Shown here piece by piece: positions 5,432 to 58,100 of a stretch of DNA of 64,000 nt. Made by a program: the position numbers and the translations under genes. Under the pieces are notes generated by a model that had not been told where the DNA came from, searched no databases, and was given only the letters and a program-made list of their open reading frames with translations. The number at the start of each line of letters is the position of its first letter. The stretch's first letter is position 1. This DNA comes from Vairimorpha necatrix (taxonomy: Eukaryota): the NCBI GenBank assembly GCA_036630325.1, contig CP142727.1, positions 1,240,001 to 1,304,000 of the forward strand, written 5' to 3'.

Positions 5432-7792
<2,361 letters not shown>

Positions 7793-17000: not shown

Positions 17001-17013
17001 AGCCCAAAGGCCC

Positions 17014-17943: not shown

Positions 17944-20900
17944 ATATTCGTAGATTATAATAAAAATATAAACTGCTTACAGCTATAAAATAGGAATTAC
18001 GGGGAAGTTTTGTTTTTGCTTAAATTTCATCAGCATAAGTTTGGTGACATTTTGTCATTTAAATGAAAGACACATACACTTCATATATTTTATGCGTATT
18101 TAAGCGTTTTTACATAGTATCTTATCTTTTAAATAAACAAAGGGGTTATATAGTAAAAATATATTCATGTTCCAGTGCAAAGTTCAAATTTTTGTCTTTT
18201 TCGTACAAAGTCAAATTTATAAATTTGATGTCTATAATCTAGTTTGATTTTATATCTTGTGCAAACCAAATTTACTTATAAGTTTTTCATATAAAACATT
18301 TTTTTTGATTCTTAAATACACAAAAATTTGTTATTATTGTAAAAACGGACTAAGTAATATTTTTTTTATATCAGAAAAGGATCCAATTTATACAGTAAGA
18401 TCAGATTGTTACGTTTTAATGTGTTTATAACTCTAGTTCATATTTGAGCATATAATTTATTTTAGAGATTACATAAAATGTATCAGCTACGAGAAAAAAT
18501 CAATGCTACAAATATTTCTTAAAATATATCATATCATACTTCCAAAGTTAAACATATTACATGAAGAGTATTGTAAAATAAAAAATAAGTAGATTTAAAA
18601 TATTTAAACATCGATATTCTGTAATTTAAATGTAATTTTGTGTTAAATTCTTAAAGTTCTTTTTTAGTCTTAAATTAATACAGTTACCGGTAGTTCCTTT
18701 GTTAAACATAACTCAGAATTTTTTTTATCAGTTAAAAACTGGATTTTATAGTATTTACATATTGAATATAAAGCATATAGATTCTAGAAGCGCATAGATT
18801 TATCATTTGGCTTTTTCATAAAACATTTTGTACATAAATTCTCGATAAAATTTATAAGCGTCAATTTATGACTATAAATTATTTGTACCAAGTAAATTTA
18901 TTAATTTTTTTTATTTTAAGCAAAAAAATGATAGCTATTCGAGAGTATCAAATATAAAAAAATTATAAAATAGGTAACCCGAGGATCTTGTTATTTACAG
19001 GTTTATATAAAAGAAATTAAAAATCTATATTTTGTTAATTTTACTTGGTATATATACAATGAATCGTAAAACACAAATTTTTTTTACAAGTTATAAATTA
19101 TATTAAGCATTACAGAAAGATTGACCATGGTCGATTAAAGATTAATTACTCTGATTGCGGGGAGGATTATAAAGCAAAATCTATAGCGTAGACATCGCAG
19201 AATAGTATAAATACGCGCGAATATAAAGGCATAATAAGACAGGAATTATATTAATAAGAATCTCAATATTTTTCTCATTATGCCTGAATCTTAATTAAAA
19301 ATATAACTTTAATAGAAAGTATCGTCTTTCTTGATTTTTTTTATTTTAAAATGACTATGTCTATAATTTATTTAAAATATTCATATTCAAATGAAAGTCA
19401 AAAATTAATTTATACATAGATATTTTAGAGTGATTAATGAACACTATATAACGGTTTTAATTTGGGAAATAAATTTTCTAATTTGATACAATAAAAAATA
19501 CAAGAGACATAATGATGAAATATAAATATTTTGATAATTATATATACATAAAATCCTTTTCAAGTATAAATTCTTGCCAATCTTACATCTAATTTCAAAA
19601 TTTTTTAACTTATACATCTTGTTTTGTAGTAGAAAGGAACCGCCACATTGCAAAAAAGAATCGGAATTTTTTGAAACAATAATTTATAAGATGCAATTAC
19701 TACCTTATTTTAAAGTAAGTTATTATTTTTTTCATGAAATATTGCATAAATTAAATTCGAAAGGAAGGCGTGTAAAATAAGTTAAAAAAATTAGAAAAAA
19801 ACTAATTAAACGTACGTATAAATTACAAAAAAGAAGTTATAAGTTATTTAAAGACCCATAACAATAAAATGTAAATCAATTCCGTTTTTTTAAACTAAAC
19901 ATAAGTAATTTATATGGGAATTTTATGCGTTGAAATAGATTAATAAAAACAATAAACTATTTTTAACAGTTTATAATACAAACAGGGGATCATTGATCCC
20001 CGGACCTTATATAAATAGAAACAAAATCTATAATTACAAAATAGAAATATTTTTTTTCAAAACGTTTCAATATAAGAATAACAAAATTAGAAAAAAAAAT
20101 TTTAATAGCAAGAAAATATCTTAAATTCCAAGAAAGGTATAAGATCTAAATTCTATTGAAAAGTAAATTAGAAAATAAAAGCAAGATCGAACAAAAGTTT
20201 TGAAATTTATAAAAGCATAATCAGTTATATAATATAAACGAAACTCTTTAGCATACGTTAAAGTAGAAACATCATATAAATTTGTTTTAAGATTCATTTT
20301 CGAATATAGTTTACTATATTATATTTGAGCTCTTTATGAGGTATTAAAGTATATTTTAGTATATAGCCTCTTTTCTACATCGACCAACTATTTTTATGGG
20401 CTTCAATCGACTTAATATATACGTTTTAATTATAATTATTCCGATGCAAGATTATACAGACACGTAGTTCTAGATAATAAGGATTGTTCGATTTTGGACA
20501 CAGCTTTGTATTGCAAATCTTCATTATTTATTTATAATGTTTTGTTTAGTATGTAGAAATAGATAAATATTTGAGGAATCGCTAAACTTAATTATTCAAT
20601 GGTATTTTTAATATACAAACGTTATGGTCGAGGTTTACGACTATTAATTATTATTTTAAGACACATTAATATCCCGTTATGTCCTATTATAAAATTTTTT
20701 ATAAAAAATCATCAAAAAACAAAATTAAAAACTGGCCTTTATACACTTGTGAACAATTATAAAAGATATCCGTTTTTTACAAAAGATAGATATATTTTAT
20801 ACTTTTGCAAAATTATATATTATCTGTAAACTATCGCATATATCTTGTAATCTTTTTTTTCGTAATTTTTATATCATACAAGATATTAAATTATAAAACA

Positions 20901-21959
20901 TCTGCATTTAAAAAACAAAATTTATCGATAATATGCTTAAAACGACAATCATATGATTATAAATATTATAAAAAAAATTTATACATATACTACTGATATA
21001 ATGTGTATAATCTCTGCGTTGATTTACAGTCTAAATCTTGAAAGCAAGCTTTACATGATATAGTAATTATAGAATCTTAAAGTATACTAAAGATAATAAA
21101 TGAACATTCAATGCAACATTATATTAAACCTACAAAACGTATAAATTTTTTCTTGAGGATAATATGTGCCTATAAATTGTTACATATTTTTAATACACTT
21201 TGTAAAAACATGCCTAATTTTATATACATCTCTCATTAAAATTTGTTCTTTGAATCATTTTATCTATATTAATGTTTAATATCATTTGGCTGCAACCTAT
21301 AAATTATTTTACCCCATTTATTAATATTATTAATTTATAAGACTTAAAATAAGTGGTGCTACAATCAACAACATTTATTTTGAATCATAATAGTTCATTC
21401 TGCTCATTGCCATTAAAGATGCTTACATACATCATTTATTTATCGTTTATATCTAAAGTTTTCTTTTTAATTTTAATTCGACGTATTACGAAAAATACAA
21501 TCTAAAACAATTTATATACTGATAAAGTATGACGAAACAATATAATATCAACAATGAAAATATTGAAATTTCAATCACATAAAAAAATAAATAAAACAGT
21601 GATTTATATTTACAAGTAGGCCTTGCAATATAAAAAATTAGAACAATTTGTATGCATATTTTTTTTTCGGTTAATGCATAGTTGTTTAATGAAAATATAA
21701 TTTATTTGGGTATAATATTCGGCTTATTAATTACTTTTCACAAGATACGCTTACAGTCTCATCTGGCAATTCCAGGACTTCCTTCTGAGATTCACTCATT
21801 GGGCTCTCGAAACCCCCTTCCTGATCTGTATCAAGCCCATGTCTGGCTGACATAGTTAGGCTAGTTGTTTAATGATATATGTTATTTTTATTTTTTGTCA
21901 GTTTAAAATAATGGTACATGACCGTTTAGAACCTGCTTTGAAATTTTAAAGGATCCCTT

Positions 21960-34981: not shown

Positions 34982-37900
34982 GGGGTTGTTTTGGATGCAA
35001 ATACAAGTTATATTACTCAATGTTTGTGTTGCGTCAACAAAATTTTAATTTATATAACTTTAAAATTTTATCTCCTGTATTTTCAATTCTTTTTATGTTG
35101 CTTACATGAAATCATCTTCGTTATGCAATTATAATAGAAAATAAAGAAATAATTAATGCTCAAAGTTATTTTAGTTTTGTAATATGTAATTGCTACGCCT
35201 TGCTTTGTGTGTATCACGATCCAAAATTACCAAAAAATTTGGAATTTTGTAAGTATTATTTTCAGTGAATCTAACTTATTAATAAATTGTTTTGTTTGGA
35301 TGACGTCCAAATTATTCAACTTTTGAAAAACAGTCTACGAAAATATTTACTTATGGATTTAATAAACTTAAATACTTTTTGTCTAGCAATGTTCGCGAAA
35401 TCTAAATAATAAATAAAAAATAGTATATATCATTTACTAAATTATTAAAATCCGAATTCACGGCTATACATATACTATAATATTTCAAATATAATGACTT
35501 ATACTAAAGTAATTATTAATAATTGATATGATATGAAAAATATAAGCCAGGTTATAAAATCATTTTGAAATGAAGTTGCATTGAAAAAAATTGGGTTCAA
35601 AATTTTATATTTCATTTTGTAATTAATCATGCACCGACTGAGCAAGATAAATTGCCTGTAGATGGACTGAAAGTATTAGCTATATATAGCAACTAGTGTT
35701 AAAAGAACCATATAGACAATATGATTGCTCAATCATAATATGGGTACAAATTACATTGAAATGCATTTTAGTAGAGGTTTACGATAAGGATAATAAAGAC
35801 ATCAATTACTCATCTAAAAGGATTTATTCAAAATACATAAAAAATACACCAAAATATAATATGTGCCAAATGATATGATTTAAGTAATAATTTAAAGCAC
35901 AAAGACAATTTCTAATATAAAATAACGTCATATATAAATGTTGCTATTTTGGGAACGATAAAAAACTTAATGAAACAATAAATAAATTAGACTGGGTTAA
36001 AATATCAACTATATGCTAAGGTAATAAACTGGTAGTTTTTTATAAACCAAATCATGTTAAATGTAATTTTTAGATATAAATAAGCAGTAAACATATAAAT
36101 GCCATTTTTTAACAAGAAAAAAAAATTTATGGTATAATTGTCGGATGTTTGTTTCAAAACACCGGATCATTTGAAAAAAGATTTATCAGGAAAAATATTA
36201 ACAATGAGCATTTATGAACTCAATATGCGAATATATATAAATCACAATTCTCATATAATATATAATATTGGACACGCTGATATGAAAACATATGCAATAT
36301 ATAACCTATTGCATAATAGTTATTTTTCCAAATTACTTTTTATTCCATGGTGATTTGAACACTGGTTGTTTGATTCCTCATTATACTTTATATGATTATT
36401 TCTACAATAGTTTTTAAAGCTTAAGATACATTTTCTATGTATTTTATGAAGTTAAATCTTCAATTATTCCTCTTTCGTTGTTTTGACCTAAGATATATAG
36501 ACATAAGTTATGATGATAAAATTCTGATATTTCGAGATATATATAGTATGGAATTATAAAAGTGTAGCCAATTCTAAAAAGCTCTTTAATAAATTCATCA
36601 TAGTCGTTAGAGTAAATGATATTTGTGGAAAAAATCAAGAATATCAAGATTTCTATCCAAAATTTTGATTTAAATTTTTACAAAAAATATTCAGCTATGA
36701 ATATTTTCTTTTTATATATAAATTAATTAAGAGAGATGGCAACCTCATTCTTTAGATACTCCCACAGGGCACTAATTCGTCAGCTCCTAATGATAAATTA
36801 TATTTTAATAATCAGACAATTCTATTTGTCTTAGGAAACAGCACAATAATATTTTTAGTTATAACAAAAATCTTGCATTAGTGTTATATGTTTAAGTTTT
36901 TAAATAAGGGGTTCTTTATTTCCTTAGGTATGTTGAAATATATTGCATACCATTCACAAATCACTTATGCTACATTTACAATTTTTTTTTGCACATTCAT
37001 TGTCATATATCTTTATAAGCATTTTTGCGATTAATGACTAATCTATATATATTTGTTATTAAAATAAAAAAATCTCTTATTCATTACACACAATTAAAAA
37101 TTCATAACTTGATAAAATACAATGAATTAGCGACTTTACCTTTCGTATTATTTTACTACCATATTATGAGAATGTTTTTTCACTGCATAAAACAAAGATA
37201 TGGTAAAAATCAATTCACCTATTATTTAAATATGATTTAAGCGTAGAATCATATTTTTGAACAAACGAATAGATCATAGTTTGATTTACTCCGTGCATTA
37301 GAAAGTAAATTTTTTTCATATGTTCTATGCGATCTTAATTTGTATCATATTTAGTGAGTTATAATTACTTTAGTCCTACGTCGATAGATAATGAGATTTC
37401 TTTCATACTCAAAATTTAACATAATATTGTTTTTTTTCAAGAAATTAAAACCTTCATATGGTTTATAAGTGGCTTCAAAGAATTTTATCATATGAACCGA
37501 CCGAAGAACCAAACAAGCCACACTGGATGGGATTCCCTTAATTTTTGTTTTAGTATCTTTATTTCTATCGGCCGTTTGCAATAATATAGGTAAATTTCCG
37601 TGCATTCATGCTTTTTTTATGAAATATGTATACTAAGCATCATGATATTTTCTCAATTTAATACGAATGTAAGCCTATGTTGGAATCATTGATAACTTTC
37701 TATATGATATAGGATTTTTGCTATGATTTTTTGCTACTAACTTTTCATGCATATTTCAGAAAAAAAATTATCTTTATATTCTATAGCAAAAAAGGAATTG
37801 ACGACAAAAGAATGTGTTAAAAAAATATGCTTTTTACGCATCAAAATAAAGATAAAGTGATTGTAATCTAATTATCGACAATTTTTTCTTATAAAACATT

Positions 37901-38364
37901 TATCAAAAAGCTCTTAATAATCTTGAATTTTTTTAGTTTCTCAATGTGAAAATGGAATTTTTGTTTATGTTTGTACTATTAAAAGCTATTTATTAATATT
38001 GGGTGTTGTTTGCAGTAAATTGTTATCCCGTATTTTAAAAAAACGCGTTGTGGACATTCTGAATACGATAATATTAGAATATTAAAGGACATAGCCATTT
38101 GATTTCAAAATAATCTTAATTGCCAAAAATAAAACATAAATAGCCGGAAAATAGATTTTCATGAGTAACAAAAAGAGAATTCTGCATTTAATCATAAAAC
38201 ATATATAATTGATTAATCAATAATTACGAAGCTCATGGCGGATCTTTTAAAAACCTGAAATGAATGATTTAATTTAAAAAGATAAAAATAATAATAAATA
38301 GAATGATAAATTTTTCTAATGTGTACTTATGCTATATACACAAACTCCTCTGAAAAATATAAAT

Positions 38365-38685
38365 TTAGATTTTAGTTGAAGGATTTAGAATGATTTTCTT
38401 ATTGTGGTACCCTCTAGTGAGGGAGCCAAAACGAAAATATTGCTCCAACAGGGAGCGGATACAAGTTTGTTTTTTAAATGATTTATTAGGGGTGGAACTC
38501 ATCTTTGTGGTTCCTATGTTGGCTTTGTTGTAATTAATATTAATCTTGTTTATTATCATTTTGTCGCACCCTTCTTTGAATATTTTTTATTTATAAAAAA
38601 TAATTTCTAGAAAATTCATTTTTGTTAAATATTGAGATAAATAAAAAATAGAAGAAATGTAAAAATTATGTGGTAGGATACCACA
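38365..38685 (-). mobile_element. LTR retrotransposon 5' remnant: 124-bp LTR plus gag-like start
   Basis: 38562-38685 reads TGTGGTATCCTACCACA...GGGTGCGACA on the minus strand and is similar to 29712-29811; ATG at 38559 gives IRSLLEQYFRFGSLTRGYH. Confidence 0.55.
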
Positions 38686-39109
38686 CTTATGTATCTATAT
38701 AAAGACTAAATCAACAAAATCCCTACGTTAAATTACACTGACTTTTTTCGGGCGATAGATTAATTAAAAATTCTCAATAAAAAACGTCTAATATAAAACA
38801 AAAGAAGATTAATGTAATTATATATATGCTGTATCTATTCTTTCATTTACTTGTAGAATGGTTTTTATTGTTAAACTATATTACATAGATTTTCATGCAT
38901 TTAATCCTAATTGTCTCGTTTGTCCATGATTAATCGTAAATAAGCAGAATTTCTCATAAAAAGTTTAGGCCATGAGCTTTTAGGACAAATTTATATTGTA
39001 GGAAGTGTCACACGTGTCAAATACGCCGTGTACTAGTTTTGATATATTAGACTTGTCATTTCTTTGAATATTTTATAATAAATAAACCAATGTTTTCATC
39101 TAAAATAAG

Positions 39110-39179
39110 GTGCCCTTAGCCCAGTGGTAGAAAGCGATGCTTCCATTGAAAAATGGCTGAGTTCGATTCCCGGGGCACA
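39110..39179 (+). pseudogene. tRNA-Gly(TCC)-derived head (not a functional tRNA)
   Basis: A box TAGCCCAGTGG at tRNA position 8 (39117-39127), CTTCCAT anticodon-like loop, B box GTTCGATTC (39161-39169), GTGCC/GGCAC acceptor remnant; anticodon and T stems are broken. Confidence 0.7.
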
Positions 39180-39897
39180 AAAATTGTTTCTACTTTCTAT
39201 GTTGAAGTTGGAACAACTCAGATGATGAAAATGTCCACGATATTCATTAATTTGATTCAATGAAACTTGTGTGTGTCCAGCCACAAGAGGATTAGCATCT
39301 TTGTAGAAACGCACCTCAAAGCCAAAAAGCAGTATCGCCCTTGTGGTGACTTAATAATACATAAAGGTATCTAATGGGTACGGCCTAGTTAGAGCCCATG
39401 GCTGGTGCACTCTAGAGTGGGATCATTAAGCTAACTTAGAGACTAGACGAAGTAGGGCAATAGAAGGTCTCGTGGACCCCATCCTAGAAGATTTTGTAAC
39501 ACGGTGGTCGAAACTAGTGGTAGACTGGTGGTCAACGCAGCCCAATAAAAATTGCGGACGGTGATGTGGTATGTAAGAAGTCGTGTGTGCAATACAGATT
39601 ATTGTGGAGATCTTTGAGTTAGTACAATTATGTCTTTCCTTGGGTTATAGATAACCATGACCGTTAAGTATATCCGCTGTGAGGTCACTCTGGACGCAAT
39701 TTGAGGTATAAATGGAAAGTGTTCTCCTGGAGCCAAAGTCCATTAAATACGGCGGAGCCTGGTGCGCCGTTAAGTTGCATGGAGAGAGTTTTAGTGAGTA
39801 AGAATCTTACAATACCAATTGGAGAAGGATAACACTAAAATTCTTCTGGTTCCTATGTAAGGGTTCTCTCTACCTCTTAATTGCAAGAAAAAGAAAA
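39110..39897 (+). mobile_element. tRNA-derived SINE-like element
   Basis: tRNA-like head with A and B boxes, ~700-bp GC-richer non-coding body, A-rich tail, degenerate flanking direct repeat (TTCATCTAAAATA 39095-39107 / TACATCCAAAAATA 39898-39911). Confidence 0.7.
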
Positions 39898-39959
39898 TAC
39901 ATCCAAAAATACTATTATAAAATTTAACAAACAAAAAAGTGTACAAAATTAAATTCTAT

Positions 39960-42095
39960 TTATTTTTTTTGTTTTTTCTTCAATATTTCTACTAATGCGT
40001 TGTGTATCTTTATTCCCACTTCCCCATTTATCTCATATAATATGTCGTGATTACTTAATAATTCCTTGATGTTTTGTAAATTTTTTTCACTTTCATTCTC
40101 ATGATTTGTGACCTCATTTTTAAAGGTGTCTATTATAACTTCTGGCAGCAATGTAATAGCCGCTCTTTTAATGTTTTTTGCTATAATTATTTCTATTCTT
40201 TTGATATAATTATTTTTAATTTCGGTCTGATATTTTTCTATTAAAACATTGTTATTTTTATCTTTTTTAATCTCTTTATCATTGAAAATTTTGCTTATTT
40301 CTTTTATGCCTTTTTCTATTAATTCTTTTGAATGTTTATCCTTATTTTCGCATAAAACTGCAATATTTTTGAAAAAAGCTTCTCTTTTTATTTCATTTAA
40401 TTTTTTTCTTAGTTGTTTTTTCTGTACTTTCTTTATTGTTTTTTCTAATCTAAAATCATTTGTAATGATTTCTAGCTCATTTAAAACCACATCATTGTTC
40501 TTATTAATCTCGGAAATATTAATATTCAGGGTTTGTTTTATTTCTTCTATGGTGATTTTATATTTTGTATTATCAAAAATACAATAAACATCTCTTAACC
40601 CCGTAAATGGAGCTATAAATATAACAACATACTCAAAAAATTCAAGATTGCAGTGTAAAATTTCATCTTTCAGAATAAAAATTTTTCTATAAATTTTCAT
40701 TAAATCAATATCATATACTTTGCATATTTTTGTGTTATGTGATTGTTCAATATTTTCTTGTATTAAAATACTAGTTCCAATTTTTTTTAGTTTGTTAAAT
40801 ATATATTCGGTGTTAACATCGTTACTATTGATAAATCTCTCTCCGGCTATAAACAAACAAATTTTTAACATTTCCTCTCCTAATCTCGAATTGTATAGTA
40901 TTTGAAGTTCTGTTTTATTTAATATGGATTTTATTGATCTGTGCTCCCAAAATTTCACATTTTTTATTAGTGAATTTGCAGTTGTTTTATCTATTAGCTC
41001 TTCATGTAATAATATTTGTACAAATATTATATTTAGGGCGGTCTTAGGTTTATTTATTAGTTGATCAATAATAAACTCGACTTGATTATTTTTTTGTAAT
41101 AAGCGATAAAATAATTCTATTTCTTTATATTGATTATTTGTTTTAATATAGGTAACCCTTTTAAAAATATCCTCGAATTCATAAAATAATTTTCTTCTGA
41201 TGATTTTGTGTAGACATTTGTATAATGAGTAACAACGATCTCCAGATGGCGGATAAAACACTATCTGTTTATTTACTCTGTCTAATTTGATAAAAATTTT
41301 ATTTTCAATTTTGATTTCATTGGTCGAGCATTTAAGTGAATTCACGTAAGAATTAAATTTAAAGTCCTGAATTGTCGCAAACTTGTTTAGTTTAACAATA
41401 TTCTTTAGCATATCGCCATTATTTTTATTATTTCGATAGTAGTTAGAAATAAACAATGAGTAAAACTGTTCACTCTTAGTTTCGTCTAAATTAAGTGAAA
41501 ATATATAACGAATACTTTCATATTCAATCCAAAAGGCAATCCATACCATATTTTTAAAATATTTGTGAGTTATTGGTAAATGATAATTGTTAAAAGCCAT
41601 TTCGTCACATTTTCCATCAAATTTGGTTTTTGATAATAATTTTGCAAAAAAGCTATTTTTTTTAACAATATATTCATAATAAATTCCTTTCCTGCTTGAT
41701 TTCCTTTCTTTATTTTCTTTCTTTAATCTTCTCATTATTTTCTTTATAATTTGATCATGATAATTGTAATTATAAACCAATATTACAAAATCGAAATAGT
41801 TAATTGTTTCATATTTTATTATTTGTTCTTCTAGTACTTTATTAAGACTGTAAATATCCATATTGTCAATTATAAAGTCTTTTGTAAATTGACTCGTTTC
41901 TGCTTTTATATTTCCCCTTATTACATTATTTTCTTGATCAAAATCTATCATCACTCGTAAGTATTTTTTATTATAATCAAATCTATAAAAATTATTTCTC
42001 TTTATAAGATTTAGTATCTGTTTATAAATTTCTTTGTATCCAATTTTTTCATTTTGTGTTAAAAATAACAAAGAAAATATAAAAATTAAATTCAT
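39960..42095 (-). CDS. Hypothetical secreted protein, 711 aa
   Basis: CCCCC-ATG, signal peptide MNLIFIFSLLFLT, long uninterrupted ORF with Lys-rich helical C-terminus; no family recognised. Confidence 0.85.
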   Translation of the reverse strand: MNLIFIFSLLFLTQNEKIGYKEIYKQILNLIKRNNFYRFDYNKKYLRVMIDFDQENNVIRGNIKAETSQFTKDFIIDNMDIYSLNKVLEEQIIKYETINYFDFVILVYNYNYHDQIIKKIMRRLKKENKERKSSRKGIYYEYIVKKNSFFAKLLSKTKFDGKCDEMAFNNYHLPITHKYFKNMVWIAFWIEYESIRYIFSLNLDETKSEQFYSLFISNYYRNNKNNGDMLKNIVKLNKFATIQDFKFNSYVNSLKCSTNEIKIENKIFIKLDRVNKQIVFYPPSGDRCYSLYKCLHKIIRRKLFYEFEDIFKRVTYIKTNNQYKEIELFYRLLQKNNQVEFIIDQLINKPKTALNIIFVQILLHEELIDKTTANSLIKNVKFWEHRSIKSILNKTELQILYNSRLGEEMLKICLFIAGERFINSNDVNTEYIFNKLKKIGTSILIQENIEQSHNTKICKVYDIDLMKIYRKIFILKDEILHCNLEFFEYVVIFIAPFTGLRDVYCIFDNTKYKITIEEIKQTLNINISEINKNNDVVLNELEIITNDFRLEKTIKKVQKKQLRKKLNEIKREAFFKNIAVLCENKDKHSKELIEKGIKEISKIFNDKEIKKDKNNNVLIEKYQTEIKNNYIKRIEIIIAKNIKRAAITLLPEVIIDTFKNEVTNHENESEKNLQNIKELLSNHDILYEINGEVGIKIHNALVEILKKKQKK

Positions 42096-42250
42096 GGGGG
42101 CAAATTGTCAGTCTTGAAATATTATAATGAAAATTTTTTTAATAAAAAAAATCATTAACGTTACTTTTAAAAAAATATTATTGACTCGCACAAAAAAATT
42201 ATTTTATTGTAATTTTGTTATAAGATAAAATAAATTATTGATATAAATTC

Positions 42251-43057
42251 AGCTCAGCAGGATACTTACAGCCCATGCATTTGAGGTGTAAGATTTTTTT
42301 TTCGAACCTCGAAAACGAAGTGCAAAAAAAGTAGAAGCAAAAAGAGACAAAAATTAATAAGCACTTATGATTATAAAAAAACCAAATAAAAAAAAATTTA
42401 GATACAGAAATTTGGTTTAAAAAAAAAAGTATTAATCATTTTAATAATTATGCATTTTTTGCCCCTAACTTGCTGGATTTGAGGTCTAAAATGCCCCTTC
42501 TCAGAGGGTGTTCGCATTATTTTTTTGAACCGCAAAAACGAAGTGCAAATTCGGAGCAGTAAACATTAACACTCAAATACTTGCATCTTTAAACAATATC
42601 AATACCAAATTAATATATATTTTTAAATAAAATACAATTTAAAAAACGAATGTCTTTACTAAACTATAATTTTTTAATTGTTTTAACAATTTTTATTAAA
42701 AAACAGTCTAGATTTTAAAATATGTATTAAATTTTTTTGTATTTAAATCATATTTCTTCTTTCAATTGTTCGTTCATTTTAAAAGAAGATTATGAAGAAA
42801 TCACCTAATATAATTAAGAAACAACCAAAAAAATTTAAAAAATCGAAACATATAAAACGCATAAAAAATAAAATGATCAAAATTTTATTTAACATAAATT
42901 TTCCTATCTAAGTATATTCTTATTTATTTTTTATAATATAAGAACTACCTAGTAATTTTTGTCTCTTCATTCCTCCTCCTTTTTTTGCACTTCGTTTTAG
43001 GGTTCGAAAAAAAAATCTTACACCCTCAAATGCGTGGGTTGTTAGTTTTCTTTGGCC
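42251..43057. mobile_element. MITE family copy A (older, diverged)
   Basis: Long TIRs (CCCAxGCATTTGAGG(G)TGTAAGATTTTTTT..CGAACC...GAAGTGCAAAA); internal layout as in copies B-D; left end and TSD degenerate. Confidence 0.8.
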
Positions 43058-46377: not shown

Positions 46378-47829
46378 TTAATTTACTATGATATCGTGTT
46401 TTCGACCGATTATCTCGCAAAGATCTTTTATACGTCCACATAAAGACGCCCTTTGTCTATAAAAACTATCAAAATTTACTAAAAGGATCATAAGATCCGC
46501 TAATATTTGTTTTTCACGAATATCAATTCCCGTAATTTTATTTTCGAATGAAAAATAAACCAATTCAATTAAATCTGGTAAATTAAGATCAACAACAATC
46601 TTTTCAATTCTCCAATAATCTAATGAAAGATAATAAAGCAACTCAAAAGATCTATTCTTTATTTGTAACCGTCGACTTTTTGGTATTACAAACTTGCTAA
46701 CCGAAATGATAAAATTTAATGATTTGATAATTAGTTCATTGTCATGAGATGTTAAGGAAATGACTTGTTTTTTTATCTTCTCGGCGCATATTGTCAAGCT
46801 AATTCGAAAATTTGGAAATATATGCGTTAAATAACTTCTATATTGTTTGATTTTTTTCATATCTAATCGATTAAAGTCAACTGTTATTTTTTTAGTGGGT
46901 ATATTTTGTGAAAAAAAAAACTCTTGGCTTTTAATTTGATCAAATTTAAGATTTAGTTCTCTTAACAGTGGATCCAACCATACACCACTAGTAATTATGT
47001 TTCTTACATTATCGTCATAGTTTAAATTCTGGCCTTTCTTATTTAAAATCGTTTCACGAAGTAACATTTTATGTTTATTTATCGTCGGCGCTGAGTCACA
47101 GGTATTAGGATGTATATTGTAAATTTCAGCTCCATTTGTTCGACCACTTTGTTCTGAGATTGAGCAAATTTCATTTGAATTATTTATTAAATTTCTTTGA
47201 TTCAATTCTTCTTCGTCTGAAAATCCCACATGAAAACTATTGGGTATGTTTACATCAAAACTAATGTCGTTATCTTCTTCGTTTAAAGTTTCTTTACACA
47301 TTAAATCCTCAATGTTCATATTGTCTGCCGCGTCATCATAATTGGCTTGACTTATTTCTTCATGATTTTTCTTATAAAATATTAAATTTTTATTTCTTAC
47401 ATTGTTTTCAAAAAAATTGCAGTATTTTTGTTTATTACTAATAATAGATTGTTTTCTATGAAATGGATATTCATTGGGCACATTATTTGATTCTTTATCA
47501 CAGTTAACTTGATGAATGAGCCTAGAAGGTACCTTTTCGTTTATAAAAAGTTCATTTGAAACATAAGTCGCACCCGTATCACAATCAATTTGTTCATTAT
47601 CTTTATATGCAATTGCTTCGTGTAGTATATAATTGCTATTAAGATGTTCTGGTGTTTCCTCTATGCTTTTACTTTCATTAATCCCTAATATCGTCTCGAT
47701 ATCTTCTTCAGTATTTCCTAAAATTGCGTCTATATGTTCATTGGTAAATCCTAGAACGGATTCGATATTTTCAATGTTTGTTAATTTACTAATCTTTATA
47801 CATTTTGCTAAAGAAAAAAATAAAAACAT
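46378..47829 (-). CDS. Secreted protein of local multigene family
   Basis: MFLFFSLAKC signal peptide; ESVLGFTNEHIDAIL motif; conserved C-terminal domain (LIIKSLNFIISV..F.IP...YYLSLDYW). Confidence 0.9.
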   Translation of the reverse strand: MFLFFSLAKCIKISKLTNIENIESVLGFTNEHIDAILGNTEEDIETILGINESKSIEETPEHLNSNYILHEAIAYKDNEQIDCDTGATYVSNELFINEKVPSRLIHQVNCDKESNNVPNEYPFHRKQSIISNKQKYCNFFENNVRNKNLIFYKKNHEEISQANYDDAADNMNIEDLMCKETLNEEDNDISFDVNIPNSFHVGFSDEEELNQRNLINNSNEICSISEQSGRTNGAEIYNIHPNTCDSAPTINKHKMLLRETILNKKGQNLNYDDNVRNIITSGVWLDPLLRELNLKFDQIKSQEFFFSQNIPTKKITVDFNRLDMKKIKQYRSYLTHIFPNFRISLTICAEKIKKQVISLTSHDNELIIKSLNFIISVSKFVIPKSRRLQIKNRSFELLYYLSLDYWRIEKIVVDLNLPDLIELVYFSFENKITGIDIREKQILADLMILLVNFDSFYRQRASLCGRIKDLCEIIGRKHDIIVN

Positions 47830-51434: not shown

Positions 51435-53438
51435 ATAAAGTTTAATGCAAGTTATACGTTGTTTTGCTAGTTGAAGACATGTTCATGCTTAATAATAAAT
51501 ATTAAAGAGCCCACAATTACTTTTATAAAATATACTGTATTTACTTCCTTTCTAAATTTGGATCCTCATTTGGCGCCAAAGATTTTGCTATAATGTTGCT
51601 AAGAAAATACATTCCACAATTATTTATTGCTCACTTTACACAAAGATTAATTATCATTTGATCGAAACTATTTTTTTATATAATTTTACATAGAAACTAT
51701 AAGTGTGGCTTACGTCGAGTTAATAAACATTTTAAAAGATCAGAACCCTCTTTTTGCGGTTTTTATATATATTATTTTTTTTCCTAATCTTTGTTTTATT
51801 AATTTTGTTTTCTACATGTTTAATTAATTAAGAATAGTTATGATTAAAATTCTTTCTTATAGTTTTTTTGCAATTAGTTACATTAACTCTAACAAATACT
51901 ATTAGCTGATAATTATCTTTTAATGATCTAAATTCTAAATCAATAATTGTTATGTAAAAAGTGTAAAATAAAGATTCTTTAATTATACCTTTAAACAAAT
52001 CACTAAACGCCATTTAAAAATATCTATATATCAAGATTTTTAAAATTATAGCATAATATGAATATCAATTAAATTTTCAGAAATTTTTTAATTATCTGAT
52101 TTTCAAATTAATTTCTTGAAAGTGAGTTCGGCAACATTGTTACCTATGTCCAAGAACTACTTGTCTATATCAATCTTAATGAATGTAAATGTTTGAGTAT
52201 ACTTCATTTTACCTTTTCTTTTTGTTTCTAAAAGCAGCTAGATCATTGTACCCAAAAACCTTTTTTTCTTAGAAATACCAATAAATGCCAAACATTGTCT
52301 AAAAAAAGTGTAGCAAATACGAGATCCTCATTTTAATGAAATTGGTGAATTTTTATTAACTAAAACTTATACTATTTTACTTTTAGTAGCAATAAGTTTC
52401 GCAGTATTTATTGGACATTGGCTCTAGAAAAATCAGTTACCATTTATATTGTAAGTTTTCTAAATATTTATAGGTATATTATCTTTCGCACTATGTTTGT
52501 TTTTTGAGAAGAAAATTTGATGATTTAAAAAAAAGTCTCTACTGTAATCGGCATCCTGTACGCGTCTGCTTACACTTGCACATCCCCAACTTTGTATTAA
52601 GTAAGCTGCCTATCCACTCATAATCGACATGCTTTGACCAAGTGTTACAGAGTCATGTAGATCGTTGGAGCCAATTAAGCTATTTATATTTTACAATAGT
52701 ATCCATAATAAAAAAACCGTTTATTAGGATCCAATCAATTTTTGAAAACAGTTGAAGTACAAATTGAGACTATTTTTTTTCCCATAAAATAATTTTTTAT
52801 AGAAGGAAAACTCTTTGTAATATACTGCATAAAAATTGAATAAATCGACTTAGCAATTGCCGTGGACACATTTCATATTTGAGAATATAAGACATCAAAA
52901 AATTATATAATTAATTTTGTTAGAGGTAATCAAATATGTTTATAGCATAACACAATTTTCGACCAATGTCACGTGCACTTTTGCCAAATTAATTTCATAA
53001 ACTATAGTATGTTTATTATAAAGTATTTGAGAATATAATGATAATTATTATACAAAGAGTAACATAAGATTAAAGTATCAAATAAAACATCTTCAAATCA
53101 TAATTAGAAAAAAATATATTAATCAAACTATCACTAAATTTTTAGAATATATTCTCCACTTAGTTTAATGTAAACTCATTTTACAAATATGTATTTCAAA
53201 TCATAAAAATCTATAAATCTAATTCGTGTGTACTTAAGACAGATGGAGGAAAGACTGCGAAATGTGTTATTATAGTGCGCACGATACATTTCTAAAAAGT
53301 TTAATACTCTCAAAATAAAAAAATTATTAAAATTTATACACATTAAAAAAAAAAGCTCACGATGCTGTAAATAAACATCACGATTTAAAGAGGGTTCCTA
53401 AATTGATTATATTTAATTTTATCTACATTGGCCTAATT

Positions 53439-55115
53439 TTAGATTTTATAATTATATTTAGAACCAATTATCTCACAAATATTTTTTATACGTATAGACA
53501 ATATCTCTTTTTGTTTGCTGAAGTTATCAAAATTATAAAACAGAGCTTCTAAATCATATTTCGCTTGAATAATCTGTATATTTTTATTATTAAAATGATA
53601 AATAATTAATTCAATAAAATTGCCTAGATCAAGCTTATCTAACATTTGATCTAATTTCCAAAAATCCAATGAAAAATAATAAAACAATTTCAAAGTATCT
53701 TCACGTATGCGTAATTTCCTACTTGGAGGTATTGCGAAATCGCATACAGAAATTACGAAATTTAAAGAATCGATTATCAGAGAATTTTCGTGAAATCCTG
53801 TTGTTATTTTATTTATAATACTTTCTGCGTGTATTACCAAGCTTCTTTTGTAAAAACCAAATCTACGATTTAAATAATTTCTATATAATTCTACTATTTT
53901 TTTCTCTTTATTGTTTAAATTCTTGTTTTTCTTATTACTTGGTATTTTTGATATAAATTGTCGCGCTTTAAACTTAAATGTATCAAATTTGACTTTTAGT
54001 TCTCTTAATCGTTTTTCTAACAATAAAGCGCCATCAATTTGGCAAACAATAATATTGTTATAATTTTCATATTGGATATTAATTATAGGAGGTGTTATAA
54101 ATCTTTGGCTGCTCTGACTTATACTTGTCGATGATGTGTCATTAATAGTTGAGTAATTTCCATCTTTGGATGTAACTTCGTGCGTTACATCTTTATTTAT
54201 ATCACTGCTCATGTTTTGGTCATATTTGGTACATAAATTTGTCTGTTGATTTGTTTTTTCGTCTATTGAACAATTATTCACGATATACATACTTGGCGTA
54301 TATGTATTACTCTGTAGACTTTCTTTATGTATCTGTTCATGTATCAAATCACGAAAATTTCCTATGCCAATAATTGCCTCGTACATGGTATGTTGATTCT
54401 CCTGAAATCGTTCTTCTTTGTGTGGTAAAAACATATGTGCGCTATCATTCATATTTTTTACAAGTTCCAGTTCTTTTTCTTCCTGGCACGTAAGATCTTT
54501 GATTAATGATTGTCCTTGCATTTTATTGTAGCCAATTTCGCGGTAAGAATCATTAAGATCTTCTTCTTCAAATGTCTCGCCAAATGGTTTATAGTCCTTT
54601 GACGCATTGTATCTAACCATATTACAACATATATGGTTATCTTTCTCCTGAAACATACTTTTCTGCAGTATATTTTCATTTATTATTGTACTTCCTCCTT
54701 CGCCATAAACAATTTGATCATTTTCCGGACTATTTGTATTTATACGAATTATTGATTCATCAGATACATAAGGCATAGCTATGTCATGATTAATTTTAAA
54801 ATTTTTTGCACAAAGCATTTCATCTTGCGTAAAATTGTTGTTTTGAATATTTTTTATTGACATACATTTGTTATTTTTGTTAATTCTTTCGTCGTTTCTT
54901 TCATTTTGAGTACCATCAGCACTCATTAAATGTATTAATTCGTCTTCTCCAATTTTGTTTTCAATTATTCCTAAAATGGTCTCAATATTTTCTTCGTTAT
55001 TTTCTAAAACGTTATCAATATCTTCGTGTGTAAATCCTAAAATCGATTCATTGTTCTCTTCTTTAGAATAGAAGCTAAACTCTGTACATCTTAAGAAAGA
55101 AATAAATAATAACAT
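53439..55115 (-). CDS. Secreted protein of local multigene family
   Basis: MLLFISFLRC; ESILGFTHEDIDNVL; C-terminal SLNFVISVCDFAIPP...YYFSLDFWK; CCCC upstream. Confidence 0.9.
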   Translation of the reverse strand: MLLFISFLRCTEFSFYSKEENNESILGFTHEDIDNVLENNEENIETILGIIENKIGEDELIHLMSADGTQNERNDERINKNNKCMSIKNIQNNNFTQDEMLCAKNFKINHDIAMPYVSDESIIRINTNSPENDQIVYGEGGSTIINENILQKSMFQEKDNHICCNMVRYNASKDYKPFGETFEEEDLNDSYREIGYNKMQGQSLIKDLTCQEEKELELVKNMNDSAHMFLPHKEERFQENQHTMYEAIIGIGNFRDLIHEQIHKESLQSNTYTPSMYIVNNCSIDEKTNQQTNLCTKYDQNMSSDINKDVTHEVTSKDGNYSTINDTSSTSISQSSQRFITPPIINIQYENYNNIIVCQIDGALLLEKRLRELKVKFDTFKFKARQFISKIPSNKKNKNLNNKEKKIVELYRNYLNRRFGFYKRSLVIHAESIINKITTGFHENSLIIDSLNFVISVCDFAIPPSRKLRIREDTLKLFYYFSLDFWKLDQMLDKLDLGNFIELIIYHFNNKNIQIIQAKYDLEALFYNFDNFSKQKEILSIRIKNICEIIGSKYNYKI

Positions 55116-55164: not shown

Positions 55165-58100
55165 GTATAATAGAATATCCATCAAATTTCTATAGAATAT
55201 GATGTCAATTGTTTAACTGATATTAATTGTTCTGCATTTATAAACTAACACAAAAAAAAATATAAAATTTCCAGCAATTCACTAAAGCATACAGGCATAA
55301 GCATTGTAAATTTTCTTATTTAGACACTGTCAGATTTAAAGCGCAAGCCTCGTGTAAAACAAGCATACAAGGCATTTATACTTGAAAACATCTTAATATA
55401 AGTAAGAATTGTTTTTTCGTCTTAGATTTTCGAAAGTTGAAGCAAAAATAATCTAAAAAATACAAACCCTCATATAGGTAAATAAAATGACAAAATAATG
55501 TGAGGCGTAAAATACTACCTCATGCTGATTTTTAGAATATAATCAAATCTTTAAAATGTTTTGCTACATATATTTTCTTTTATTTTAACTCTAATGCTCA
55601 TAACAAAGAAAGCCATTCTAACTAAAATTCTATAATAATACGCAATACTTTAATCATCACCGTCGTAATATAAAAAACATATAAAAGATTAAAAATTGTA
55701 TGTTTATTTATAGATTTGATGTGATCTTGACAATTCACGCTCCTAATGCTGCAGTATGTTTTAACAGAGATGTTAAAGTTTGCAATAGAAAATTATTTTT
55801 ATGGATTTTTTTAAAAAACAGAAAAAAGACTAATAGTATAGCGACAGTCCATTTAATATCGCAAAAAAATCAGACATGATTTTTTTACGAGTTCATAGCA
55901 AACAATTACTCAATAAAATGGGGTTTGTCGCCTATATCTTATTGTTTACATCAATTATAGTTTTTGTTCGAAAAAAACAAAAGTATATTTTTTCTTAGGA
56001 TATACTTGTTAATAAATTTACATCTTTACCTTACAAATAAGTATTACAGACGCAATTTTAAGAACATTTTATATAAGTGGTTTTTATTATAAAAGCATGT
56101 AAATAGCACGAAAACTTTAGTATGTTCATAATAAGGGTTTAAAATCATTTCATGTATACTTATTTTTCGACATGTGCGAAATGAAAGAATCATTTTTTGC
56201 TACAAGTTATGTGTGTCTAAAGAATAATTTACATGATGCGTTCTAAAATGGACAAATTTACCATCATGGCTAATAAATGTGTTGTATATAGAGATATGAT
56301 TTCACGTAAATATTTTTTTTATGAATATTATCCTGCATAAAAAAAACTTTAATACGTTTTAATTTTATTTGCTAGCTTTCTAAACATTTCTGATTAACAT
56401 TGATGGATCAAAAGCTTTAACCCCTTTATATAAGAAAAATATTTTTTCACGGATAAATATCTTATAAAAAGAATTTATGTGTATATTAAGGTGGAGAAAA
56501 TGCTTAATGATCATATCATGTTATTTAAGTGTAATTTATATGTCTAAAAAATAAACTTTTCTTATAATTTTGCCTGTATTCAGGGAAAAAGTATTGTAAT
56601 AGCATTTAAGGTTTAGGTAACAAGTCTGTTATTTCGATAAAACATATTTTAAATGCCCAATAAAATGTAATAATTGTTTTCTTATAAAATAAAAACTTTA
56701 ATTGGTATTATTGTAAATGAATTTTAATATAAGAATGCGAAAATATATATAAAAATTGCCATCTTAAGTGAGATATCCATTCAAAGTACTAAAAGTAATA
56801 ATAAAAAAAACAAAAGACTAACATAAACTATTGTTATTGTTGTAAAAACTCTTTATTTTATTTTTATCTTCACTCTTTGACTAAAATAGGGTTAAGATAC
56901 TATAAAAAAAAATATAGAAATGATCAAGCATTATAAATGCTCTGTTAAAGCGTGAAAAACTACAATAGTTATAAAAAAACATAAAAAATACACGCAAGGA
57001 GTGAACTATTGAAAAATACTAAGATCATGGTTTCCCGAAAAATTTGTAGTAAATAACTTCTGTTTTCTTGCAAGTAAGAGCAAAAGTGCTTACAAACGAA
57101 CTAAGACCACACGAACTAGAACCTTATCGAACAGTATTGTGCGATTCCTGTTTATGAGAACATTTCCATTTGCTATGCCTAGACTTGTACATCATTTTAT
57201 CCATTATGCTTTGTACAAAAAAAAATATTATCATTTATATTGTGTCGAGTCCAGAGAATTTACAAGCAAATAGCATAAAACAGAAATAATGAACTATAAT
57301 ATATGATAATTGTCGTCCAAATTCACACTGAAATCTATCTATAAACCCATAAAACAGCTTGTTTTTTTTATAGGTTGCATTGTACCGGTCTTCCATAAGT
57401 ATCGACCTAAATGTTGCGGAATCTCAAGGGTGTCCATAGGAACATCATAGCTCTATTATATACGAACAACAATTCGGAATAAAAATCTTTAAGAGGCCAA
57501 TAATGCAGCCTATCATCTAAAGGCCTATCATATTCAATAATGAATAGATTTTATTGGTACTAAAAGTATTCTTAACCATTTTTTGTAAAAATCAGATAAA
57601 AATTACAAACAGTATTTACATAAGAATCATTTCTTCAATCCCGACTTATATCGAAGTTAAACGTTTGCTCTTATTTCTTGTATTTTCATTTTAATTTAGA
57701 CCAAATAACTATGTGGGAGCAGCACAATCTTTTAAACATTCCCAAGCAACTATCATATCTCTACGTTAAATAATCTAAAAGATCCAACACATTATTTCTT
57801 GGAAAATGAATTAGATTGACAGAATTGGGTATTATGTACTATTATAATGCTTTCGACATATTCTTCAAAATTTAAACTTTTAGCTAAATTGTTTGTATAA
57901 AAATCTATTTTGTTAAAAGTACGTCTTTATCATAACCATGTCAAACATTTAAAGTAAAGAACAAGATTCTTAGCGAATAAAGCATTTTTATAGGATAGAT
58001 TCAATATTTTATCATTAAAAACAAATACTTATAATTCGTAGTTAAAAATAGGCACATATAACGATATGCAAAAGGCTTCTTGAAAACACACTTGAAAGCA

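What the first reader, a model, noticed from the sequence alone, without database searches (positions are those of the whole stretch)
39110..39897. Long tRNA-Gly-derived SINE-like element with a structured body and LINE-like 3' tail
Seen: a Pol III head with correctly placed A and B boxes and a Gly(TCC) anticodon remnant; a ~700-nt body much richer in GC than the surroundings, with no run of five or more T (T-runs are everywhere else, so Pol III read-through is plausible); several stems (CCACAAG/CTTGTGG, ATGGG/CCCAT, ACGGCG/CGCCGT, AGAGAG/CTCTCT); an A-rich tail and a degenerate TSD. From memory, the tail GTTTTAGTGAGTAAGAATCTTACA...TAAGGGTTCTCTC...AAAA resembles 3' UTRs of insect R1-clade (Waldo-like) LINEs and SINEs that borrow them; this is unverified. 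I know of few SINE descriptions from microsporidia, so this may be a new family or a host-derived horizontal transfer.
Basis: partly seen in the sequence, partly recalled or inferred. Interest (0 to 1): 0.75.

Follow-up and report, generated by a model that had tools for sequence, protein, structure and literature searches.

The report
tRNA-headed SINE-like repeat in a microsporidian
A 0.8-kb non-coding, GC-rich insert that begins with a decayed tRNA-like promoter and ends in an A-rich tail is one copy of a many-copy mobile repeat (a SINE-like retroposon) in a Vairimorpha/Nosema-type microsporidian, an ordinary kind of element that has hardly been described in this group.

Summary
The feature is real: 39110-39897 is 42% GC in a 25.8% GC window and is non-coding. 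It starts with a 70-nt stretch that the Rfam tRNA model aligns end to end, but at 11.8 bits against a gathering score of 29. An A-box/B-box pattern matches only there (1 match, 0.01 expected). ARAGORN calls no tRNA.

Contigs of two public runs decide the question. Summed depth over 39108-39911 is about 50-175 times that of the flanks, from hundreds of contigs at 80-100% identity, and it falls to zero right of about 39911. So this is a dispersed multi-copy family, not a single ncRNA gene.

The window also holds two old, AT-decayed copies of the 3' ~420 nt (52263-52660 and 57058-57455, minus strand). Both end in the same tail.

The "structured body" is not supported: fold z-scores run from -1.25 to +0.96. 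The R1/Waldo tail and host transfer could not be tested, and no partner LINE lies in the window.

Best reading: a long tRNA-derived SINE-like retroposon (confidence 0.7). Pol III transcription and LINE-mediated insertion are inferred, not shown. It is a new member of a known kind. SINEs in Nosema appear in print only as a repeat-table line. Interest is moderate.

The parts
39110..39179 (+). tRNA-like head: 7-bp acceptor-type pairing, A-box and B-box/T-loop motifs; D, anticodon and T stems broken
   Evidence: Rfam tRNA model 1-71 aligned end to end, 11.8 bits vs gathering 29. ARAGORN finds none. A/B-box pattern: 1 match at 39123-39170, expected 0.01. Fold z -2.24, as a hairpin.
39180..39452 (+). 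5' body, family-specific; no other copy in this window
   Evidence: Smith-Waterman scan of 39181-39460 over the window: best 46 vs 99th percentile 42. Covered at full repeat depth in X1 and X2.
39453..39895 (+). 3' module, also present on its own twice in the window; candidate LINE-derived part
   Evidence: Aligns to 57058-57455(-) (264 of 379 columns identical, score 91) and, from 39484, to 52263-52660(-) (248 of 380, score 105). The next best chunk in the window scores 46. nhmmer E 3.5e-93 and 7.8e-91; these are the profile's own training sequences, so they match by construction.
39887..39900 (+). A-rich tail; likeness among the three copies ends here
   Evidence: Sequence. The alignments of both old copies end at 39892-39895 with the same tail motif. 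Depth is zero in bins 39912-40179.
39102..39107 (.). Left half of the only candidate target-site duplication (AAAATA); right half at 39894-39899
   Evidence: Longest exact direct repeat between 39080-39112 and 39880-39920 is 6 nt. This is weak in AT-rich DNA.
39963..39970 (+). First T run of 5 or more downstream (T8): candidate Pol III stop for a read-through transcript
   Evidence: function is inferred only.
52263..52660 (-). Old, AT-decayed copy of the 3' module (31% GC)
   Evidence: Lies 779 nt downstream of ORF 53439-55115(-).
57058..57455 (-). Old, AT-decayed copy of the 3' module (32.5% GC)
   Evidence: Lies 822 nt downstream of the paralogous ORF 58277-60190(-).

Best explanation
39110-39897 is one nearly full-length, fairly young copy of a dispersed, non-autonomous retroposon family of about 0.8 kb in a Vairimorpha/Nosema-clade microsporidian. 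It is SINE-like, with three modules: a decayed tRNA-derived head that keeps Pol III A and B boxes, a family-specific 5' body, and a ~440-nt 3' module ending in an A-rich tail.

Proposed mechanism: RNA polymerase III starts at the head and reads through the body, which has no T run of 5 or more. The 3' module and tail are then taken by the reverse transcriptase of a LINE and copied into new sites by target-primed reverse transcription. Copies later decay towards the genome's AT-rich composition.

Shown: the anatomy, the lack of coding capacity, many diverged copies bounded at these ends, separate occurrence of the 3' module, and AT decay of old copies.

Inferred: Pol III transcription, the LINE partner, and the insertion mechanism.
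For: Multi-copy and bounded. In run X2, summed contig depth is 182-533 over the six bins 39108-39911, against 3.3-3.6 in the fully covered flank bins. In X1 it is 15861-21163 (one bin 101518), against 121.5 for the neighbouring gene. Both runs read 0 in 39912-40179. In all, 292 (X1) and 239 (X2) contigs were laid on the whole 4001-base stretch laid, with identity classes 26/58/83/125 and 7/44/73/115 (99+/95-99/90-95/<90%). At seven sites all or nearly all contig depth carries another base than the window copy, as expected for a copy drifting from a family consensus. Depth is flat from head to tail, so most copies are full length (all).

Head. Non-coding; no Pfam family in the 2 of its ORFs that I scanned. 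No terminal inverted repeats: best local score 10.

Two further copies of the 3' module in the window share the same 3' end and have 31-32.5% GC against 41%. c2 and c3 each resemble c1 but not each other (score 34 vs shuffle mean 33), which is the pattern of old copies of a family whose young copy is near the consensus.

Strand asymmetry of homopolymers: 0 T5+ against 5 A5+ runs.

LINE families exist in the clade: 4-15 per Nosema species (Table 1 of PMC4202319, passages); LINE Dong-R4 makes up 1.04% of N. bombycis (Table 2 of PMC3614468, passages).
Against: No other full-length copy could be read, because no whole genome was available. Family consensus, true 5' end and target-site duplications are therefore unknown.

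The tool warns that summed contig depth is not a copy number. X1 flank depths are uneven (5.6, 14.8, 121.5) and its kind is only guessed as DNA.

The bin left of the head (38974-39107) is also deep (4100 / 95.7), and some contigs fit the left flank up to 39096-39099 and then diverge. Either the family carries about 50 nt upstream of the head, which a Pol III retrocopy should not, or it sits in a repeated target.

At 790 nt it is long for a SINE. Two T4 runs lie inside it. The absence of T5+ runs is expected from its composition (P=0.39). The TSD is only 6 nt of AAAATA.

No LINE or RT remnant was found in the 102 translated stretches of the window that I scanned (10 ATG-to-stop ORFs, 13 stop-to-stop frames of >=90 aa, and 79 of the 117 stop-to-stop frames of 55-89 aa). 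No expression data.
Confidence: 0.7

Rival explanations
1. It is a dispersed repeat of another kind, such as the end of a larger transposon, a non-autonomous DNA element or a recombination-spread low-copy repeat. On this reading it merely contains or abuts a tRNA pseudogene, and the head plays no part in its spread.
For: The left-flank bin 38974-39107 is also deep, and one X1 contig begins to fit at 39063, upstream of the head. Length of 0.8 kb, a weak TSD and no partner LINE seen. X1 shows many single-contig joints that skip 68-535 nt inside the element.
Against: Depth falls to 14.8 / 3.3 one bin further left and to 0 on the right, so the unit is at most about 0.9 kb. There are no terminal inverted repeats, and by eye no TG...CA ends. 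There is no coding capacity. The head sits at the 5' edge and an A-rich tail at the 3' edge, and head depth equals body depth.
Confidence: 0.17
2. The SINE-like family is real but was acquired by horizontal transfer from an arthropod host. This is compatible with the best explanation as to mechanism; it is a rival only as to origin.
For: Its GC content (42%) is far above the genome's (25.8%). Host-derived transposons are reported in Nosema (PMC3614468 abstract and passages; PMC4202319 passages). The element-to-flank depth ratio is similar in two runs from different studies (about 130-175 and 50-160), which places the copies in the parasite genome now but says nothing about their origin.
Against: Nothing was tested: no insect genome, Dfam or Repbase was on hand. 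High GC is also usual for RNA-derived and transposon sequence in AT-rich genomes. The old copies in the window have decayed to 31-32.5% GC, so the family has been resident for a long time.
Confidence: 0.08
3. It is a single-locus structured non-coding RNA gene transcribed by Pol III from a tRNA-like leader, in the manner recalled for yeast RPR1 and SNR52. Candidates would be an RNase P/MRP-like or telomerase RNA.
For: A GC- and G-rich island in an AT-rich genome, an A/B-box leader and no T5+ run. By eye, one stretch near 39455-39475 recalls the RNase P/MRP CR-I motif (recalled, not tested).
Against: It is multi-copy with hundreds of diverged contigs and has decayed partial copies. No Rfam family scores at E<=10 except chance-level U6 (13.7 bits) and PyrD, and none reaches gathering score in the window. 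Fold z-scores are ordinary. By eye there is no run of the telomere-template type for the TTAGG repeat reported for V. necatrix (PMC10759460 passages).
Confidence: 0.03
4. It is an assembly artefact: host contamination or a chimeric join.
For: The composition jumps sharply at both edges.
Against: An independent 455-nt contig of X1 spans 38827-39281 across the left junction with 13 differences. Flanking genes are microsporidian: CDC48 is 92% identical to Vairimorpha bombi. The neighbouring ORF lies on a 1.49-Mb contig. Old copies are embedded elsewhere in the same window.
Confidence: 0.02

Closest known systems
tRNA-derived SINEs (the SINE2/tRNA class of eukaryotic retroposons)
   Same: A small-RNA-derived 5' head with internal Pol III A and B boxes. 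Non-coding body. A separable 3' module ending in an A-rich tail. Many dispersed, diverged copies. No terminal inverted repeats. Decay of old copies.
   Different: At about 790 nt it is longer than the usual 100-600 nt (recalled range). The partner LINE and target-site duplications are not shown. There is possible extra conserved sequence or a repeated target just upstream of the head. The host group is Microsporidia, where I found no described family.
'SINE' line in the Nosema bombycis repeat table (PMC3614468, Table 2: 28,669 bp, 0.18% of the genome) and SINE as a RepeatMasker category in a comparison of Glugea plecoglossi with 10 other microsporidian taxa (PMC13702014)
   Same: Same clade (Nosema/Vairimorpha) or phylum, and the same class label.
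   Different: Those are automatic tallies. The passages I read give no sequence, structure or family description. Whether they are the same family cannot be told; I did not open the supplements of either paper.
Leader-type Pol III genes of budding yeast (RPR1, SNR52), recalled from memory
   Same: A tRNA-like A/B-box leader placed in front of a longer non-coding RNA body.
   Different: Those are single-copy functional genes whose leader is cut off. This is a multi-copy, decaying family with no Rfam match and no excess structure.
5'-truncated LINE tails / LINE Dong-R4 of N. bombycis (PMC3614468, Table 2)
   Same: The two old copies consist of a 3' part only and share the 3' end, as truncated LINE insertions do. 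LINEs are present in the clade.
   Different: No reverse-transcriptase sequence was found in any of the translated stretches of the window that I scanned. No sequence comparison with any LINE was possible.

Membership tests
SINE (tRNA-derived) | 5' head derived from a small Pol III RNA, with internal A and B boxes at tRNA spacing | tested here: met
   Rfam tRNA model aligned 1-71 to 39110-39179, 11.8 bits, sub-threshold. The pattern AGTGG-N28-45-GTTCGANNCC matches once, with 0.01 expected. The box consensus itself is recalled.
SINE (tRNA-derived) | Non-coding and non-autonomous | tested here: met
   Stops in all six frames and flat codon-position GC. 0 Pfam families for the two ORFs inside it.
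SINE (tRNA-derived) | Many dispersed copies with shared ends | tested here: met
   Depth is 50-175 times the flank in two runs from two studies, and hundreds of contigs at 80-100% identity were laid on the whole 4001-base stretch. The right edge lies before 39912 and the left edge within 38974-39110. Two partial copies lie in the window. Caveat: depth is not a copy number, and no second full-length copy was read.
SINE (tRNA-derived) | Short length (about 100-600 nt, recalled) | tested here: not met
   About 790 nt (39110-39897), longer than typical. This is a size convention rather than a mechanistic criterion.
SINE (tRNA-derived) | 3' end A-rich or simple-repeat, or shared with a partner LINE | tested here: inconclusive
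   The A-rich tail at 39887-39900 is conserved in all three copies. No LINE was available to compare, and there is no RT remnant in the window.
SINE (tRNA-derived) | Flanking target-site duplications | tested here: inconclusive
   Only a 6-nt AAAATA. An alternative 3-nt duplication is suggested by eye from loose ends.
SINE (tRNA-derived) | Transcribed by Pol III; no internal terminator | not testable with these tools
   No RNA run was listed. 0 T5+ and two T4 runs. The terminator length for microsporidian Pol III is not known to me.
Functional tRNA gene | Cloverleaf that passes tRNA detectors | tested here: not met
   ARAGORN: 0. Rfam: 11.8 bits vs 29. The MFE is a long hairpin.
MITE / DNA transposon derivative | Terminal inverted repeats | tested here: not met
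   Best local alignment of the first 80 nt against the reverse complement of the last 80 nt scores 10.
Known structured ncRNA families (Rfam 15) | Covariance-model match | tested here: not met
   0 at gathering score in the 64 kb. Only chance-level hits at E<=10 in 38900-40100.
R1-clade (Waldo-like) LINE tail | Sequence likeness of the last ~120 nt to R1/Waldo 3' UTRs | not testable with these tools

The most novel reading that the evidence does not exclude
This is the first SINE family to be characterised in Microsporidia. It is unusually long (0.8 kb), recently active and present at about a hundred or more copies. It inserts into a preferred repeated target just upstream of where its head now sits, and it was acquired from, or is shared with, the arthropod host together with a site-specific LINE partner.
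Probability: 0.08. Interest if true: 0.65.

Novelty: new member of a known kind. Interest (0 to 1): 0.4.

Why it matters
Microsporidian genomes range from extremely compact to repeat-rich. The published transposon surveys I could search list LTR, LINE and DNA elements but do not describe any SINE. 'sine' occurs 0 times in PMC4202319, PMC7313128, PMC12449221, PMC8206274, PMC10759460 and 10.1101/2025.05.12.652816. It appears only as a tally line or category in PMC3614468 and PMC13702014, and as zero in PMC11585130.

A defined tRNA-headed family would give four things:
- a missing class for repeat libraries, so that these GC-rich islands stop being taken for genes or ncRNAs;
- a marker system for strain and species history in the Vairimorpha/Nosema clade;
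- an indirect read-out of Pol III promoters and of which LINE is active;
- a test case for host-parasite transposon exchange.

It is not a new kind of biology.

Tried and rejected
- Whole genome: not held. Copy number, consensus, TSDs and the partner LINE could therefore not be computed.
- The look-up of sequencing runs: no RNA holder listed. Runs X3 and X4 hold next to nothing of the stretch.
- Other copies elsewhere. Metagenome scan with a 21-nt pattern from the deepest part: 1 locus (L001), a 21-nt chance match with no further likeness. Viral contigs: 0 of 2 patterns. Prokaryote genome contigs: 0.
- Search of the protein collection with the spurious 84-aa ORF of the element, hoping for ORF calls on other copies: no candidate.
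- Earlier findings of this scan: nothing by place, by sequence or by words.
- ncRNA-gene idea (RNase P/MRP, telomerase RNA, snoRNA cluster). I considered it because of the leader-plus-GC-island anatomy and by-eye motif likenesses. I dropped it after one search showed many copies and searches showed no family match and no excess structure.
- LINE remnants. Pfam scans of 10 ATG ORFs, 13 of the 29 stop-to-stop ORFs of >=90 aa (another 9 of the 29 had been covered as ATG-to-stop ORFs) and 79 of the 117 stop-to-stop ORFs of 55-89 aa (I left out 38, mostly those lying inside the large ORFs). No RT, endonuclease or integrase family.
- Head or 5' body copies in the window: none. A profile of the three 3' modules finds no fourth copy.
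- Block duplication of gene plus spacer plus element for copies 2 and 3: spacers score 92 against a shuffle mean of 89 and maximum of 117, so it is neither shown nor excluded.
- Left-flank motif at 39060-39086 as a common repeat: 1 match with up to 3 mismatches. Its 11-nt core has 11 matches against 9.8 expected, so it is not enriched in the window. 38300-38720 and 38960-39100 have no clear second copy in the window.
- The neighbouring 711-aa ORF has no relative but itself.

Full report
WHERE WE ARE. The window is AT-rich (25.8% GC) and gene-sparse. Its CDC48 homologue (5441-7792) is 91-93% identical to four database clusters, one of them named Vairimorpha bombi (92%). It is 81% identical to Nosema pernyi and 58-70% identical to the other named microsporidia in the list. 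I therefore treat the organism as a Vairimorpha/Nosema-clade microsporidian. Other recognisable genes are a C2-domain protein, a CS-domain protein, an MscS-type channel and a Rad21/Rec8 N-terminal protein. No whole genome is held for the window.

THE OBSERVATION. The interval 39110-39897 is a sharp GC island. 200-nt windows reach 0.36-0.47 GC, against 0.15-0.33 in all other windows of 36000-43000. The element overall is 42% GC. It is non-coding: all six frames are full of stops, and GC is flat over codon positions (0.42/0.38/0.40), unlike the neighbouring genes.

Its first 70 nt are tRNA-like. ARAGORN calls no tRNA anywhere in the 64 kb, and Rfam finds nothing at gathering score. When only 39095-39195 is searched, the Rfam tRNA model aligns end to end (model 1-71 on 39110-39179) at 11.8 bits against a gathering score of 29. 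The acceptor stem, the A-box region and the T-loop fit, but the D, anticodon and T stems are broken. A spaced A-box/B-box pattern occurs once in the window, at 39123-39170, with 0.01 matches expected (1 of 100 shuffles had a match).

The element has no T run of five or more. Other 788-nt windows carry 6.2 on average, and 9 of 618 have none. But shuffles of the element's own bases give 0.91 on average and none in 39% of trials, so the absence follows largely from its composition. What remains is a strand asymmetry: 0 T5+ runs against 5 A5+ runs on the + strand. There are two T4 runs. The first T5+ run downstream is a T8 at 39963.

- whole + strand: z -1.25
- whole - strand: z -0.58
- six segments of the body: z from -1.16 to +0.96
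- the short segment 39740-39780, around one of the named stems: z -0.47
- head alone: z -2.24, and it folds as a hairpin, not a cloverleaf

WHAT DECIDES IT. I laid the contigs of four public runs on 37500-41500. Two runs from two studies (X1, X2) hold the region. Their flank contigs are 97-98% (X1) and about 98.5% (X2) identical to the window, so they come from close relatives of the source.

In X2 the flanks have depth 3.3-3.6 where fully covered. The six bins from 39108 to 39911 sum to 228, 533, 484, 224, 366 and 182.

In X1 the neighbouring gene (40341-41500) has depth 121.5, and the six bins sum to 21163, 18558, 16571, 15861, 101518 and 20769.

Both runs read zero in 39912-40179. One bin left of the junction bin (38840-38973) reads 14.8 and 3.3. 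In all, 292 and 239 contigs were laid on the 4001-base stretch, most of them below 95% identity (26/58/83/125 and 7/44/73/115 in the classes 99+, 95-99, 90-95 and under 90%). The per-region split is not given, and 549 of the pieces are unlisted.

At seven sites (39366, 39578, 39581, 39606, 39629, 39743, 39844) all or nearly all of the contig depth carries a different base from the window copy. The tool warns that summed depth is not a copy number, and X1's flank depths are uneven (5.6, 14.8, 121.5). Head and body are equally deep.

A 455-nt X1 contig runs from 38827 to 39281 with 13 differences, so the same insertion at the same place exists in an independent data set.

MORE COPIES IN THE WINDOW. 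BLASTN found only a 49-nt match (39707-39754 to 52448-52400). A Smith-Waterman scan of the whole window in overlapping 1.2-kb chunks on both strands gave two outliers, with scores 105 and 91. The next best was 46, the median 33 and the 95th percentile 45.
- 52263-52660 (-) aligns to 39484-39892, with 248 of 380 aligned columns identical.
- 57058-57455 (-) aligns to 39453-39895, with 264 of 379 identical.

Both end in the same tail motif as the main copy, and both are AT-decayed (31.1% and 32.5% GC, against 41.4% for the matching part of the main copy). Each is recognisably like the main copy, but they are not like each other (score 34 against a shuffle mean of 33). That is what two old copies of a family look like when compared through a young copy close to the consensus.

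Neither the head nor the 5' body has any other copy in the window, and a profile of the three sequences finds no fourth.

The two old copies start at nearly the same element position. They lie 779 and 822 nt downstream of two paralogous ORFs (35% identical). They may be one old insertion copied along with the gene, or two insertions of a shorter form. The spacers are no longer detectably alike, so I cannot tell.

Either way the element has three modules:
- head: 39110-39179
- family-specific 5' body: 39180-39452
- 3' module that can occur alone: 39453-39895, plus an A-rich tail

That is the layout of a tRNA-derived SINE whose tail comes from a LINE, or of a SINE with 5'-truncated copies.

WHAT IT IS NOT.
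- There are no terminal inverted repeats, so it is not a MITE.
- By eye it does not begin with TG and end with CA, so it does not look like an LTR.
- No Rfam family fits. The leader-plus-GC-island anatomy made me consider a Pol III ncRNA gene of the yeast RPR1/SNR52 type (recalled), and by eye one stretch recalls an RNase P/MRP motif. The copy number and the ordinary fold energies argue against this.
- No reverse-transcriptase, endonuclease or integrase family was found in any ORF I scanned: 10 ATG ORFs, 13 of the 29 stop-to-stop ORFs of >=90 aa, and 79 of the 117 stop-to-stop ORFs of 55-89 aa. A partner LINE, if there is one, lies outside the window.

MECHANISM, WITH ITS STATUS. Shown: a non-coding unit of at most about 0.9 kb, many diverged copies, a tRNA-derived head with Pol III boxes at its 5' edge, an A-rich 3' end shared by all copies, separate occurrence of the 3' part, and AT decay with age. 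Inferred from established knowledge of SINEs: Pol III starts at the head and reads through to a T run in the flank; the tail is bound by the reverse transcriptase of a LINE; and new copies arise by target-primed reverse transcription. LINE families are reported in the clade: 4 to 15 per Nosema species in Table 1 of PMC4202319 (passages), and LINE Dong-R4 at 1.04% of N. bombycis in Table 2 of PMC3614468 (passages).

Weak points are the length (790 nt), the two internal T4 runs and the poor target-site duplication (a 6-nt AAAATA). The main one is the left edge. The bin 38974-39107 is also deep (4100 and 95.7). One X1 contig begins to fit at 39063. Several contigs (2 in X1, 5 in X2) fit the left flank up to 39096-39099 and then run on with other letters. 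By eye those letters look a little like the window's right flank from 39900. That would mean uninterrupted copies of a repeated target site and an insertion spanning 39100-39899, but this is a weak reading of 30-letter consensus strings. The alternative, that copies carry about 50 nt upstream of the head, would not fit simple Pol III retrocopying. I leave this open.

The likeness of the tail to R1/Waldo 3' UTRs, a host origin, and the comparison of the head with parasite and host tRNA-Gly could not be tested, because no Repbase/Dfam, insect genomes or whole genome were on hand. The Gly(TCC) reading of the loop is possible (by eye, U before and A after TCC), but the stem beside it does not pair.

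Attempts to find copies elsewhere failed. A metagenome pattern scan gave one 21-nt chance match. Viral and prokaryote contig scans gave nothing. A protein search with a spurious ORF of the element found no candidate. No RNA run was listed.

COMPARISON WITH WHAT IS KNOWN, AND NOVELTY. It works like, and is best filed as, a tRNA-derived SINE. Two membership features were inconclusive (LINE-shared tail, TSDs), one was not testable (Pol III transcription), and one size convention was not met.

In print, from six full-text searches and term look-ups in nine papers, I found no description of a microsporidian SINE family:
- The term is absent from the transposon surveys PMC4202319 and PMC7313128, from PMC12449221 and PMC8206274, from the V. 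necatrix genome paper PMC10759460 and from preprint 10.1101/2025.05.12.652816.
- It is reported as zero in Microsporidia sp. MB (PMC11585130).
- It is a RepeatMasker category in PMC13702014.
- It is a single table line, 28,669 bp or 0.18% of the genome, in N. bombycis (PMC3614468).

I read passages only, not whole papers or supplements. Supplementary repeat libraries of these papers, and Repbase, may already hold this family.

I rate it a new member of a known kind, of moderate interest. It is useful for repeat annotation, as a phylogenetic marker, and as a handle on Pol III promoters and LINE activity in a parasite group where such elements are barely charted.

Noticed in passing
window 17014-17943(+), 46378-47829(-), 53439-55115(-), 58277-60190(-): Four paralogous ORFs with no Pfam family. 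The last two are 35% identical over 647 columns, have a hydrophobic, signal-peptide-like N-terminus and share a conserved C-terminal ~200 aa. This looks like a lineage-specific expanded gene family in a loose tandem array.
   Followed up: partly
window 38304-38705: A second repeated stretch. Summed contig depth is 172-1085 (X1) and 10-42 (X2), against single-digit flanks. It has a slightly GC-richer core with short inverted repeats. It has no Rfam match and no clear second copy in the window.
   Followed up: partly
window 38974-39107: The flank just left of the tRNA-like head is also deep in both runs (4100 / 95.7). Several contigs fit it up to 39096-39099 and then diverge. It may be a repeated target site or part of the family.
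   Followed up: partly
window 39644-39777: In X1 only, this bin is about five times deeper (101518) than the rest of the element. It holds the stretch that gave the only BLASTN hit to the old copy at 52400-52448. It may be shared with another, more abundant family.
   Followed up: no
window 39140-39786 (X1 contigs): 28 single-contig joints (15 listed) skip 68-535 nt inside the element, for example 39250 to 39786. These may be shorter deletion subfamilies or assembly artefacts in a repeat.
   Followed up: no
window 39960-42095(-): The 711-aa ORF whose stop lies 63 nt from the element's tail has no relative but itself in the 5.8-billion-protein collection and no Pfam family.
   Followed up: no
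window 5441-7792(+): The CDC48 homologue is not listed at 100% in the protein collection (best 93%), although the neighbouring 711-aa ORF of the same window is.
   Followed up: no
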